The translations under genes were made by a program, and so were the position numbers. A stretch of 60,389 nucleotides of DNA, the filler included, from Dugesia japonica (Eukaryota): assembly GCA_001938525.1 (NCBI GenBank). It is 5 parts of 5 records of this genome, joined end to end, with 100 filler letters (N's around TTAATTAATTAA, not from the genome) between each part and the next. Parts side by side here need not be neighbours in the genome. Positions count along the whole stretch, not along the records: positions 51,346 to 60,389 come from MQRL01505024.1; 4 more parts are not named here. One strand, 5' to 3'. Below, one piece after another: positions 51,346-59,399 of the stretch (position 1 is its first letter; the number at the start of each line of letters is the position of its first letter). Under the pieces are notes generated by a model, which made no database searches, was not told where the DNA came from, and saw only the letters and a program-made list of their open reading frames with translations.

Positions 51346-53312
51346 ATTTAGAATATAAAGATAAAAATTTAAATAATAAAGTGTTAAATGATAAAATTAA
51401 AAATCTAACAAATAATTGTCCACAAGAAAAATATGATAATATCGCTAGTGAAAACAAAAGATTAAGATTAACAGTTTTTTTCATTTAAAAGAAGTGATTT
51501 ATTAGTTAAATTTAAAGAATTAAATAATGAGAATTTAAATAATGAAAATAAAAAAAAATTGAAGAATTAAATATTAAAATAAATAATTTAGATGTTGATA
51601 TAGACAATAAAACTTTTGATTTACATTTAAATCTTATTAATACACTTAAATTAAATATAAATTTATTTAAAGAGTATGAAAAGATAAAACCAAAACTACA
51701 TAAAAGTTTTATTAATAGATTTAACATTATATTTAAATCTAATTCATTCGAAAAAATAAAAGATTTAATTTATAATTATTTACCATATGTTTTTCTTGAT
51801 ACTAAAAAAATAATATTTTCACTTATTTGAAATGATAAAATTGATCTTCCTCAAATTACTGTTATGGATAAATATGTTACCAATTTAGATTTTAAAAGAA
51901 AAGGTAAAATGGAAAATCNNNNNNNNNNNNNNNNNNNNNNNNNNNNNNNTTTTTTTAACCACAAAGATAAATGAAAAAATTGTTGTACATATAACCGGTT
52001 ATTATTATAAATCTTAAATCTTTCAATGTATCATTATAATTAATAATAATAGTGTTAAAGATTTTTCACATAATACAGATAAAGAAAATTATATCAATTT
52101 TAGAGCAGAAATCTATGAAACAAATATAAATTTTATTGAAATAATTTTACCAAAAGGATTTAATTTAGATGGTTTAAGTGTTATCAGTATGTCAGCGGAA
52201 ATGTTTGAAGAATTAGTTGAAGAGTTTGGAAAGATAAAACAAAACTCCATAAAAAACATATTAACACTAATAATTTATTATTTAAAACTTTTAAATTAAA
52301 AGCATTAAGAGAAATATTTGATAATTGATTATATTATGATTCTTTGTTAGGTGATAATTCAATATTAACAATTGTCTATAATGAACATCTACATTTTAAT
52401 ATTAGTGATAAATATGTACATAATTTTGATTTTTTAAGTAAAGGTAAAATTTTATTATCTGTTGTTTTACATACAAACATTAATGATAAACTTTTATTTT
52501 ATATAGATGGAAAATGTGAGATTGAAAAATTTACATATGTTATTAAAGTAAATCATATTGCTGTTTCATTTTTATATGATAAATGTGATACCCAAAGGGA
52601 CCCATTTAAAATTTATAAAGAAAGCAGTGAAATAAATAAAGCTGTAAATATAAATTATATTGAAATAATTTTACCAAAAAAAATTAATATTAAGAGTTTA
52701 ATCATTAAGAGTTCTTTGATGGTAAATGTTGAGAAATCTATTATAGAATTTAATTATGAAAAAATAAAACGAAAACTTCATAAAATTATTGTTAATAGAA
52801 TTAACGATTTAATAAAAACTCATAATACAAAAGAAATAAAAATTTTAATTGATAATTATTTACCATATGTTTCTTCACCAAATAATGAAACATTATTTTC
52901 ACTTAAGTGTATTGAAAAAGGTCTTCCACATTTTAGTGTTATGGATGAATATGTTAATAAAATAGATTTTATAAGAAATGGTGAAATGGTAGATGGTCAA
53001 TTTTACCTCAAAGATCTTTTATCTATTGTTTTACATGAAAACATCAAAAGAAGAGTTGATATAAATATTGAAGGTTATTCTGTATTTGTAAATTTTAATT
53101 ATGTCATTAATTTTAACAATGTTCCCGTAACAATTTTATATGTTAGACCTGAAGATAATAGTGTAAAAATTTATAAAGAAAGCAGTGAAAGTAATATAAA
53201 CTTTATAAAAATAATTTTACTAAAAGGAATTTATATAAAAAGTTTAACTATAAAATTTATTGAATTAACTCCCCAAGATAATGATGATAAAAAGCTTAAA
53301 ATTGTTATATAG
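51346..53312 (+). CDS. Orphan protein with N-terminal coiled coil and three tandem ~180-aa modules (5' part disrupted; intact ORF 52344-53312)
   Basis: The motifs (Y)EKIK.KLHK, NYLPYV, (M/S)D(K/E)YV..(L/F/I)DF...G and NIN(F/Y)I(E/K)IILPK recur across modules at ~51670, ~52230 and ~52755. Confidence 0.65.
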
Positions 53313-53315
53313 AAA

Positions 53316-53897
53316 ATGGAGGACAAAATATATCCTAGCTTACATAAAGATTATACTATAATAGATTTAAAAAATAAACTTGCAGTCTCAAGAGTTAGAG
53401 ATTTTGAAAATGATCTTTAAGATAAAATTAAACATTATAANAAAATACAAAAAAGATGGGAAAGAATAGATTCAGGTATAAAATATACACAAATATTTAT
53501 TAGTGCAGGAATTGGAATTGGTGGTATAATTTTAATAACTCCAGTTGTAGCGGCTTTTGCTGCATTAGGTGTTTCGGTAATAACTGGTACAATTTCAGTT
53601 TTACCTGTAACATTAAATTCTTCATTAATAAAATCTAGAAAAAAAAGATATGAAAAGTTAATTAAGAAACTTGAATGTGTTAAAAATAAACTATTCTTTT
53701 TTCAACAAAAAGCTGTTAATGATGAAATTTTAACTGATGATGAATTAATGATTTCTGAAAATATGGTTAATGAAGTTCGTGAAATGATAACGGCAACAAA
53801 AAATGAAAAAACTAAAAATACAGATCTTTCCTTAAAAATGTTAGTGCAAAATCAAACTAAAGTAATTAATGAAATGAAATCAAAACTAGGAATGTAA
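53316..53897 (+). pseudogene. Polinton/adintovirus-type membrane protein (coiled coil-hydrophobic hairpin-coiled coil) with one in-frame stop
   Basis: MEDKIYPSL...(stop at 53418)...SAGIGIGGIILITPVVAAFAALGVSVITG...KAVNDEILTDDEL. The IYP.L start, Gly/Ala-rich hydrophobic core and D..I.D.E motif match my recollection of a recurrent Polinton accessory gene. Confidence 0.65.
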
Positions 53898-54082
53898 AAC
53901 CCAAAACCCGAGACGCATGTGTGTGATTTAATTTTTTATTTAAGAAAAGAAGATGGAAAATGTAATATGTGAAATTGAAAATGTTTTAGTAAAAATAAAA
54001 TCTGGTGAGAAGAAGAAAAAAGAATTAAAAAATTAGTGATGAAGAATCTGAATGTGAATTCCAAGAAGAAGAATATATACAA

Positions 54083-54964
54083 ATGAAATATGATCAAGAT
54101 GGAACTGAAAGTGAAAGTGAAGAAGAAACATTTAACATTGAAAGTCCGGATGATTTAGTAGTTATTAATAATCCTGAAAATTTAGAAGTATTAAAAAGAA
54201 ATAAATTTAGTGAATTAACAATGTTAGAAGAATTTGATCCTCCTAAATTTATGAAACTTAATCCAAATGCAACACGAATTATTCAAATGAATAATGGTAT
54301 GAGTAAGGAAGTGAGTAATAGTCAAATACCCAACGGACAATTAATATTACCTTTACCATTTGGTAAAAATGAAAAAACATTAATAAGAAGATCAATAAAT
54401 GATGGAAAAATAGAAAGAGCAAAATACTTTCCAACAGATAATGAGGATGATGTTAAATTACAAATAAACCAACCAACCACATTTAAAATGGAACTTTATA
54501 ATTCCTTTAAAACTTATAAAGAAAGAAATTATTCAATAGGAAATTTTAAAATAGAAGATATTAGAGAAAATTGTGCAATATTTTTAACACAAAATCAAAG
54601 CAGTTTAATAAATTCATATGAAATTTGGAATAGACAATTAATTATGTTTAAACGTGGAACTTTATACTCATATGTAATGTTGGGCTCAATATTATACGTT
54701 ATAAAATTAAAGTTTCAAGTTCCTAATAAGAAAAAACATTATGAAGAATATTTAAATTTTCTAGCAGGACATGTAATTGTTCACACAATGAGTTATATAA
54801 ATAGATTAATTAGATTAGCAAAAATAGCAGAAACATGGCCTGATATTGTTAAAAGTAATTTATCATTTCGTAAAATTCAAGATAATTTTGCTGAGCTTGA
54901 AAATATAATAGCCTCAGAACAACAAATGTTAGAAATTGCAGTTAGACCAAGACAATTAGACTAA
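54083..54964 (+). CDS. Hypothetical viral protein (293 aa) with acidic N-terminus and helical C-terminal domain paralogous to 55921-56529
   Basis: Long ORF in very AT-rich DNA. It may start upstream at ~53953 via a frameshift. Confidence 0.75.
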   Translation: MKYDQDGTESESEEETFNIESPDDLVVINNPENLEVLKRNKFSELTMLEEFDPPKFMKLNPNATRIIQMNNGMSKEVSNSQIPNGQLILPLPFGKNEKTLIRRSINDGKIERAKYFPTDNEDDVKLQINQPTTFKMELYNSFKTYKERNYSIGNFKIEDIRENCAIFLTQNQSSLINSYEIWNRQLIMFKRGTLYSYVMLGSILYVIKLKFQVPNKKKHYEEYLNFLAGHVIVHTMSYINRLIRLAKIAETWPDIVKSNLSFRKIQDNFAELENIIASEQQMLEIAVRPRQLD

Positions 54965-57857: not shown

Positions 57858-57888
57858 TTATTATAATAAATAATTGCTTGTTAATCTT

Positions 57889-57942
57889 TAATATTTAAGA
57901 GGTAACATTTAACATTTAAGAGGTAATATTTTACATTTTTAC
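57889..57942. repeat. Short direct repeat (ATTTAAGAGGTAA x2) upstream of the integrase ORF
   Basis: Two ~21-bp tandem units in the MCP-integrase intergenic spacer. Confidence 0.6.
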
Positions 57943-57973
57943 CTAAAACAAGACCACTTTGTGATCATTTCTT

Positions 57974-59279
57974 TTATTTAATATCAACTCCTCTTACATT
58001 TTCAATCATGACAATTTTATTATTAGCTAATTTCATTTCTATATGTTTTTATTCAAGTATACACCAATAAACACTTCCTCTAAAATCTGGATCTTTATTT
58101 ATATGAAGTATTACATCAACATTATTAATGTTCATTTTATTATCATGAGCACTAACATCAAAACAAAATATTGGATATAAATTACTAAAATCTAAAAATG
58201 ACAATTGAGGTTCTGTAAAGAAATCACGACAACATTTTACATAATTCAAATAAGGATAAACCATTTCATTATTTTCTTTATTAAATTTACATTCATTAAT
58301 TGGATAAAAAGTATTATTTAATTGTATCTGCATAGATTTTAAATAAGAATGTTTTGGAACCTCTACATCTGGATTTCCTTCTTTGACTTTCTTGGTAGAT
58401 TTTTGTATAAATAAACTATTATTAATTTGATATGAAATTTCATTTTCTTTAAAACAAATTAAAATATATCTAGGTTGATATGCTAAACTACTAATTTTAA
58501 TTGAATAATATCCACCTGAATCTACATTTGATTTTGCAGTTATTCTATTTAAATATGAAACTTTAATAGGTTTATTTGTTACAATTCTTTCTAAAAGAGT
58601 TAATTTTGTTTTTGGTAATAATCTATATTCTGGAATGTGTAATTCAAGTGTAAAAAGTTTTAATGTTCCAGTTGCATCTTCATCTCCATAAAATAATAAT
58701 TTAGCAATCATTTGTCTATTACATCTAAACTCAATCATTGTATTATATAAAAGTCTATTATAATTTTGCATGAAACCAAATAAATTTCTTAATTGAAAAT
58801 AACCTTCAAATTTTTTACTTTCATAAAGTTTCTTTCTATAATAATATCCAAGATTATTTTTCCAACTTTTTACTTCAGTATCTCCTTTATTTATATCTGG
58901 TAACCAACCTGATATTTGTCCATATTCTTTTTTCCATATTTCAGTTGTGGTTATAAAATTTAACATTGTAGATATTACACCTGGATCATTTATAGTTTCT
59001 ACCCAAAGTTAATCTCATTGATTTAAATAAACTAGGTAAAAAGTTATTTTCTAATGTTATTTTATCTTTATCTTTATCTGGAATTGTAATTTCAATTCTA
59101 AAATATAACATTGAATTACAGATATCAAGTGGGTTTGTAGATTGAAGAGATTGAAATACAATATCACCACTTGGATTTAAATTATTTATTGATCCTGATG
59201 AAGGTGAAATTTTAAGGATATCATTTTTAATTGCTGTATGTGAAAATTCAATATTATTATCTAAATCCATTCCTGCCAT
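57974..59279 (-). pseudogene. Polinton/adintovirus major capsid protein (double jelly-roll), with one frameshift and a late premature stop
   Basis: N-terminal NLNPSGDIVF...LDICNSMLYF...LENNFLPSLFKSMRLTL. After a frameshift near 59000 it continues to QPRYILICF, IQLNNTFYP and FSNLYPIFCFDVS, about 435 aa in total. Confidence 0.88.
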
Positions 59280-59399
59280 TTTATAAAGATAAAAATTAAT
59301 ATTATACATAAAAAAGTATACCCCCCAGGGTTTTACTCGTAAATTACCTAATTCTTACATATATGCAGTTCGTGGGGTTATAATGTATTTTCAAAATTA

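What the first reader, a model, noticed from the sequence alone, without database searches (positions are those of the whole stretch)
51346..59310. Endogenous Polinton-like virus with an unusual accessory gene set
Seen: two convergent blocks. The plus strand has the modular orphan, membrane protein and paralog A; the minus strand has MCP, PLA2-integrase, paralog B and ATPase. They meet at overlapping stop codons (54961-54964). Known: MCP plus A32 ATPase plus rve integrase define Polintons/adintoviruses. Inference: a lightly decayed, fairly recent insertion of a possibly undescribed lineage. pPolB, protease and penton may lie beyond the contig edge or past the gypsy insertion.
Basis: partly seen in the sequence, partly recalled or inferred. 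Interest (0 to 1): 0.7.

Follow-up and report, generated by a model that had tools for sequence, protein, structure and literature searches.

The report
Broken Polinton with orphan cargo genes
This is a broken, cut-off copy of a very abundant virus-like jumping gene (a Polinton) in what is likely a flatworm genome; its core genes are ordinary, while three extra genes found no relatives in the databases searched, and one of them is predicted, with low confidence, to be a sugar-gripping attachment protein.

Summary
The gene map is right. A double-jelly-roll capsid gene, a PLA2-rve integrase fusion, an A32 ATPase and a two-helix membrane gene make this a Maverick/Polinton copy. It is not a lone, fresh insertion. 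About 32,000 short contigs per host DNA run lie on it, mostly 85-95% alike. Capsid, ATPase, membrane gene and repeat gene all carry stops or frame changes. The left end is an assembly gap. The right end is cut about 35-60 bases before the capsid start and abuts a gypsy integrase remnant with no LTR or TIR. pPolB, penton, protease and termini are therefore untested. The PLA2-integrase fusion is common (103 of 120 listed relatives), and one relative carries pPolB. Three genes stay unusual. Paralogs A and B have no relatives in the searches run, and some sister contigs skip them. A three-module gene models, at low confidence, as carbohydrate-binding-type sandwiches, so it may be an attachment fibre. 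Planarian Polintons are already catalogued; identity to them could not be tested. Earlier notes of this scan report Polinton ends on other pieces of this genome. Verdict: new member of a known kind, modest interest.

The parts
51246..51345 (.). Assembly gap (44 N, 12-base spacer, 44 N); hides the element's left part and left end
   Evidence: the same spacer pattern occurs at three other places in the window
51346..53312 (+). Modular orphan gene: heptad-like N-terminal stretch, then three ~180-aa modules (helical segment + beta-rich domain). Broken in its first half by in-frame stops (51828-51830, 52326-52328) and several frame changes; open from 52329. Candidate attachment/fibre protein (inferred)
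   Evidence: model mean pLDDT 46; VIA-align best Z 7.6-8.3 on carbohydrate-binding-type sandwiches; no Pfam, PHROG or NCBIfam family
53316..53897 (+). Small membrane-protein gene with one long hydrophobic stretch (likely a two-helix hairpin, SLATT-like); in-frame stop at 53418-53420, one uncalled base at 53441
   Evidence: hydropathy; NCBIfam SLATT_4 E 0.095, below cut-off; weak likeness to L003:9003-9389 (0 of 1000 shuffles; BLASTP not significant)
54083..54964 (+). Gene A, open 293-aa frame, acidic N-terminus; paralog of B; skipped in some sister contigs
   Evidence: no relative; joint 53879-54961 in 3 of 3 DNA-type runs, one contig each
54961..55700 (-). A32-type packaging ATPase; in-frame stop at 55506-55508, 120-N gap at 55219-55338, uncalled base at 55023
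   Evidence: Pfam Pox_A32 E 0.0017 on the 67-aa piece; 55% and 43% to L002 ATPase, whose whole protein passes the Pox_A32 cut-off
55921..56529 (-). Gene B, open 202-aa frame; paralog of A; skipped in some sister contigs
   Evidence: joint 55926-56573 with short sides of 18-21 letters; no family
56565..57857 (-). PLA2 domain fused to rve integrase (D-D-E motifs present), no C-terminal chromodomain; four uncalled bases at 57429-57432
   Evidence: Pfam PF08398 E 3e-9 and PF00665 E 2e-8; motifs; 679 relatives at E<=1e-10
57974..59279 (-). Double-jelly-roll major capsid protein gene; frame change at about 59001-59002, premature stop at 58049-58051
   Evidence: Pfam PF21738 E 7e-11; 55-61% to P0001 over both pieces; VIA-align ranks 1-11 are all DJR capsid or scaffold proteins
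59316..59341 (.). Break zone: Polinton-family contig cover ends, gypsy-like cover begins; not bridged in the two DNA-type runs laid; no TIR or LTR
   Evidence: depth 0 in this bin in X1 and X3
59342..60389 (-). Decayed gypsy RNaseH/integrase remnant, cut inside or just after the integrase; not part of the Polinton
   Evidence: tblastx to the gypsy copies at 25109-26172 and 43838-44256

Best explanation
This is a broken, end-truncated copy of a highly repeated Maverick/Polinton whose capsid, packaging ATPase and PLA2-fused integrase genes are shown, and which likely once replicated with a pPolB gene and a penton gene that are missing from the visible stretch. Inferred from family knowledge: intact members would copy linear DNA by protein priming, integrate with the rve integrase, and package DNA with the ATPase into a DJR capsid. 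The PLA2 domain and the two-helix membrane protein would help membrane passage. The modular gene is most likely an attachment (fibre/spike) protein with tandem carbohydrate-binding-type domains. A and B are likely duplicated, dispensable cargo genes that come and go between subfamilies; my best guess is small helical regulators, which no test here supports. This copy cannot make particles by itself: its capsid and ATPase genes are broken.
For: Capsid. ATPase. Integrase with D-D-E and PLA2 motifs. The same fusion is in 103 of the 120 listed relatives (of 679). L003 has an integrase 40% identical over residues 68-428 and carries pPolB, an A32 ATPase and a DJR capsid. L001 has the same capsid-then-PLA2-integrase order. 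Repetition: 32,165, 32,753 and 31,405 contigs laid in three DNA-type runs; 22,906 of 32,165 in X1 are under 95% alike. Contigs skip A and B. Truncation. Fibres with tandem carbohydrate-binding domains and SLATT genes are reported for PLVs (PMC12220804, passages). Group 2 Maverick-Polintons have variable gene content and often a phospholipase (10.64898/2026.06.19.733378, passages).
Against: No pPolB, penton, protease, pX, TIR or TSD was seen in the window, so full membership rests on a relative. The capsid model is confident only for the second jelly roll (mean pLDDT 51). The fibre reading rests on a model with mean pLDDT 46, Z of about 8 (the tool calls under 8 a common arrangement), and Foldseek TM-scores of 0.26 or less. 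The B-skipping joint has sides of only 18-21 letters, and each joint is one or two contigs per run. Summed contig depth is not a copy number. The host was not identified by my own test.
Confidence: 0.85

Rival explanations
1. The family is a compact, non-autonomous or pPolB-less element (capsid, PLA2-integrase, ATPase, membrane protein, fibre, cargo) that borrows replication from a helper Polinton; little is missing from this copy.
For: No replicase, penton or protease in the 8 kb seen or elsewhere in the window. Non-autonomous and protease-less Polintons are listed in PMC4028283 Table S1. Some adintovirus genomes lack a detectable penton (PMC11071296 section 16).
Against: Neither end is a terminus. 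The left is a gap. The right has no family-wide cover at 59316-59341, where a TIR should be highly repeated. Relatives with this integrase carry penton-like and pX-like genes (L002, L003) and pPolB (L003).
Confidence: 0.1
2. The plus-strand block (modular gene, A) is unrelated DNA, from another mobile element or the host, that became joined to a Polinton fragment; only the minus-strand block is Polinton.
For: A, B and the modular gene have no relative in L001-L003 or in the databases searched (A; A/B alignment; modular gene).
Against: A's paralog B sits inside the minus-strand core. The stops of A and ATPase overlap. Sister contigs join the membrane gene's end directly to the ATPase end (53879-54961), which ties the plus block to the core in other copies. 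All 30 bins are multi-contig.
Confidence: 0.05

Closest known systems
Maverick/Polinton elements, class Polintoviricetes, probably group 2 (10.64898/2026.06.19.733378, passages read; PMC4028283, passages and Table S1)
   Same: DJR capsid, A32 ATPase, rve integrase, phospholipase domain, variable accessory genes, many integrated copies in an animal-like genome
   Different: PLA2 is fused to the integrase; pPolB, penton, protease and TIRs are not visible in this copy; group not tested by phylogeny
Schmidtea mediterranea Polintons Polinton1_SM (12,786 bp, no protease), Polinton-1_SM, Polinton2_SM, Polinton-2_SM (PMC4028283 Table S1); six planarian 'uAdinto' entries (PMC11071296 File1 rows)
   Same: Probably the same host group (earlier AI notes, unchecked); Polintons are piRNA-silenced in planarians (PMC8532177, passages)
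   Different: Sequences not held here, so identity and gene order could not be compared; this copy may belong to one of them
Adintoviruses (PMC8502044, part 2 of 6 and passages; PMC11071296 section 16)
   Same: Capsid model's best viral fold matches include a MELD virus protein and Drosophila-associated adintovirus 3 capsid; PLA2 and membrane-active genes; a 'Fiber' label appears in their maps
   Different: No integrase chromodomain; PLA2 is joined to integrase, not to pX (PLA2X)
Unnamed metagenomic relatives L001, L002, L003 and proteins P0001, P0006
   Same: Capsid 40-55% and integrase 40-52% identical; same PLA2-integrase fusion; L001 has the same capsid-integrase order
   Different: L002 and L003 have other gene orders and carry penton-like and pX-like genes (L003 also pPolB); none has A, B or the modular gene
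PLV fibre proteins with tandem carbohydrate-binding domains (laminin G, discoidin; PMC12220804, passages)
   Same: Repeated sandwich domains in a modular protein of a Polinton-like element
   Different: No Pfam match here, no chaperone domain, helical spacers between modules; fold call is low confidence

Membership tests
Maverick/Polinton (Polintoviricetes) | Double-jelly-roll major capsid protein | tested here: met
   PF21738 above cut-off; VIA-align ranks 1-11 all DJR proteins, best Z 8.8, rmsd 4.1, 137 aligned; only the second jelly roll modelled well; gene broken
Maverick/Polinton (Polintoviricetes) | A32-like packaging ATPase | tested here: met
   gene broken and partly in an N gap
Maverick/Polinton (Polintoviricetes) | rve integrase | tested here: met
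   PF00665 above cut-off; D-D-E motifs
Maverick/Polinton (Polintoviricetes) | Protein-primed DNA polymerase B | tested here: inconclusive
   No tblastn hit of L003 pPolB in the window, but both ends of the copy are cut; relative L003 has it
Maverick/Polinton (Polintoviricetes) | Penton (minor capsid protein) | tested here: inconclusive
   No hit of the L002/L003 penton-like proteins (the penton label is my recall, no library named them); ends cut
Maverick/Polinton (Polintoviricetes) | Cysteine protease | tested here: inconclusive
   No hit with L003:8610-8999 (protease label recalled, not confirmed by Pfam); ends cut; absent from some listed Polintons
Maverick/Polinton (Polintoviricetes) | Terminal inverted repeats and 6-bp target duplication | tested here: inconclusive
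   No flanking inverted pair among the 25 longest listed; no AGTAG/CTACT at either boundary; left end in a gap, right end truncated
Adintovirus, strict definition (PMC11071296) | rve integrase with C-terminal chromodomain | tested here: not met
   No chromo hit; protein ends 5 residues after the last conserved motif, as in 86 of 94 relatives with that motif
Adintovirus, strict definition (PMC11071296) | PolB with N-terminal OTU-like domain | not testable with these tools
   No PolB in the visible stretch
Adintovirus, strict definition (PMC11071296) | Hexon reciprocally recognisable by BLASTP with the reference hexons | not testable with these tools
   Reference sequences not held; fold matches only
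Group 2 Maverick-Polintons | Placement by capsid clustering and ATPase phylogeny | not tested
   No named reference set; phospholipase presence only agrees
Viral fibre/adhesin with carbohydrate-binding repeats | Repeated lectin-type beta-sandwich | tested here: inconclusive
   Both modelled domains match CBM/discoidin-type folds, best Z 8.3 (rmsd 3.2, 112 aligned) and 8.2 (rmsd 2.7, 97 aligned), model pLDDT 46; no sequence-profile hit in PDB
Viral fibre/adhesin with carbohydrate-binding repeats | Sugar binding and virion location | not testable with these tools
   needs bench work

The most novel reading that the evidence does not exclude
A planarian Polinton lineage with a chromodomain-less PLA2-integrase fusion carries its own attachment fibre, built from a coiled stalk and three tandem carbohydrate-binding domains of a new sequence family, plus swappable cassettes of a new protein family (A/B). 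This would point to spread between animals as glycan-binding particles.
Probability: 0.25. Interest if true: 0.6.

Novelty: new member of a known kind. Interest (0 to 1): 0.3.

Why it matters
Virions have not been seen for animal Polintons (10.64898/2026.06.19.733378, passage). A receptor-binding gene kept across many copies would be indirect evidence of a particle stage, in a host where Polinton silencing can be lifted (PMC8532177, passages). The PLA2-integrase fusion marks a wide lineage; I saw no description of it in the passages read after paper searches. This one copy, however, is a broken fragment of a known class.

Tried and rejected
No host genome is held, so no genome-wide copy search was possible. 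Viral-contig scans with the capsid, the single integrase (51), the membrane protein (83) and the A/B alignment (92) found nothing. The modular-gene hit L004 is an 18-residue match in an unrelated phage-like frame and was rejected as chance. Gene A: no hit among 598 candidates. The only hit among 1.84 billion representatives (E 4e-4, a repetitive 2304-aa protein) was rejected. Atlas hits of 0.91-0.93 to unnamed Mucoromycota clusters are a weak lead, as recognition was below threshold. PDB sequence searches with the capsid piece, A/B profile and module profile gave nothing useful. Foldseek matches of the modular model to Cry protoxin tails and vicilins (TM 0.26 or less, rmsd 14 or more) were read as generic sandwich matches. 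I considered 59340 as a TIR end and rejected it: no family cover there. Expression: no RNA holder listed. On 58900-59650, 15 of 13.6 million and 6 of 11.6 million raw RNA reads lay, none 99% or more alike and all only partly fitting (about a quarter of each run). This does not show that this copy is transcribed; cargo-gene expression was not tested with raw reads. X9 (RNA only by guess) covers all bins, which is no evidence. No complex prediction was run. Kapitonov and Jurka 2006 is not held. Searches for Polinton with Schmidtea or Platyhelminthes listed only reviews or unrelated work. Two supplements were cut when stored and bioRxiv supplements are closed; these may hold planarian gene maps.
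Full report
Observation. Six-frame reading confirms two convergent blocks between an assembly gap (51246-51345) and a gypsy remnant. The stops of gene A and of the ATPase overlap within 54961-54964. G+C is 15-25% per kb across the element. The window also holds gypsy fragments and an MFS transporter frame, so the host is a repeat-rich eukaryote. Earlier notes of this scan call it a planarian; I did not test that.

Core genes. The 319-aa capsid frame passes Pfam PF21738. Both capsid pieces match P0001 at 55-61%. The model from a six-row alignment is confident only in its C-terminal half (mean pLDDT 51), yet the top 11 VIA-align rows are all double-jelly-roll proteins (best Z 8.8). 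The top Foldseek viral row is a MELD virus protein. The 430-aa frame has PLA2 and rve domains above cut-off with D-D-E motifs. The ATPase pieces match the L002 ATPase at 55% and 43%.

The fusion is not special to this copy. 679 proteins match the integrase at E<=1e-10. Of the 120 listed, 103 carry both PF08398 and PF00665 by precomputed domains (my count); one is from the coral Oculina patagonica. 86 of the 94 with the last motif end as the window's does, without a chromodomain. L001 has capsid followed by PLA2 and integrase pieces on one strand. L002 has penton-like, ATPase, pX-like, capsid, endonuclease and PLA2-integrase genes in another order. L003 has pPolB, ATPase, integrase, penton-like, capsid, pX-like and a small hydrophobic gene. 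None of L003's pPolB, penton-like, pX-like or protease-like proteins hits the window.

Decay and abundance. The capsid has a frame change and a premature stop; the ATPase and membrane gene have one in-frame stop each; the modular gene has at least two stops and several frame changes. A contig of another run matches 53193-53445 exactly, so the membrane-gene stop is real. Three DNA-type runs each lay 31,405-32,753 contigs on the 9 kb; in X1, 22,906 of 32,165 are under 95% alike. This is a large, diverged family. The exact copy number and the age of this copy cannot be read from these data.

Ends. Gypsy integrase homology runs down to 59381. Gypsy-side contig cover starts at about 59342, Polinton-side cover stops at about 59315, and nothing lay on 59316-59341 in X1 or X3. 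There is no room for an LTR and no sign of a TIR, so the copy is cut just upstream of the capsid gene by deletion or mis-join. The left end is in a gap. The missing genes therefore say nothing about the family.

Accessory genes. A and B are true paralogs. A had no relative in either large protein search; the A/B alignment found none in PDB or viral contigs; neither has a family above cut-off. Joints 53879-54961 and 55926-56573 show sister contigs without A or without B (few contigs, short sides for B). The membrane gene has one long hydrophobic stretch, a sub-threshold SLATT hit and weak likeness to the small hydrophobic gene of L003. SLATT genes are widespread in PLVs (PMC12220804, passage), so it is probably a standard part. 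The modular gene has three ~180-aa units. Its model (mean pLDDT 46) gives two beta-sandwiches linked by helices; both align best with carbohydrate-binding or receptor-binding domains (Z up to 8.3), and viral matches are largely phage tail, neck and receptor-binding proteins at low TM-score. I read it as a probable attachment protein, at low confidence. Fibres with tandem lectin domains are known in PLVs, and a 'Fiber' label is in adintovirus maps.

Mechanism. Shown: gene identities, lesions, truncation, repetition, skipping of A and B in some contigs. Inferred from family knowledge: protein-primed replication, rve integration, DJR packaging, PLA2-aided entry (analogy stated in PMC4642659 and PMC8502044, passages). 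Inferred weakly: fibre role. Guess: regulatory role of A/B.

Known or new. It works like, and on three tested hallmarks is, a Maverick/Polinton; four hallmarks are inconclusive. It is not an adintovirus in the strict sense (no chromodomain). Four Schmidtea Polintons (PMC4028283 Table S1) and six planarian endogenous adintovirus entries are on record, and planarian Polintons are piRNA targets (PMC8532177, passages). Whether this copy is one of them could not be tested. Papers seen: PMC8502044 part 2 of 6, passages, supplement search; PMC11071296 section 16, passages, supplement rows; PMC4028283 passages and Table S1; PMC8532177, PMC3671162, PMC4642659, PMC5803895, PMC12220804 and 10.64898/2026.06.19.733378 passages only. 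Verdict: new member of a known kind; interest 0.3.

Noticed in passing
   Followed up: partly
window 37899-38810, minus strand: 303-codon uninterrupted frame of a major facilitator superfamily transporter (PF07690 E 5e-17); likely a host gene exon.
   Followed up: no
window 25109-27232 (-) and 43045-44575 (+): Two more decayed gypsy copies, 74-78% alike in inverted orientation.
   Followed up: partly
window 10671-10899 and 14976-15204: 229-nt inverted repeat, 95% complementary, around 4 kb of minisatellite-like DNA: probable non-autonomous DNA transposon.
   Followed up: no
window 36177-36827 and 36994-37623: Near-identical tandem duplication (95-98%) on both sides of an N gap; may be an assembly overlap.
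   Followed up: no
upstream of capsid, B, ATPase, integrase, membrane gene and A: All six start codons are preceded by A-rich stretches ending AAATG; three share TAAAATG or TAAAAATG. Not tested against chance in this AT-rich DNA.
   Followed up: no
L003 9402-10262: Gene with repeated 'ANKxYVD'-like motifs (recalled as fibre-like) lies next to the small hydrophobic gene, a positional parallel to the window's modular gene; no sequence likeness.
   Followed up: partly
P0129 and P0006: A capsid-cluster member and the best integrase hit both report a 2904-nt longest contig, so they may be neighbours as in the window; not checked.
   Followed up: no
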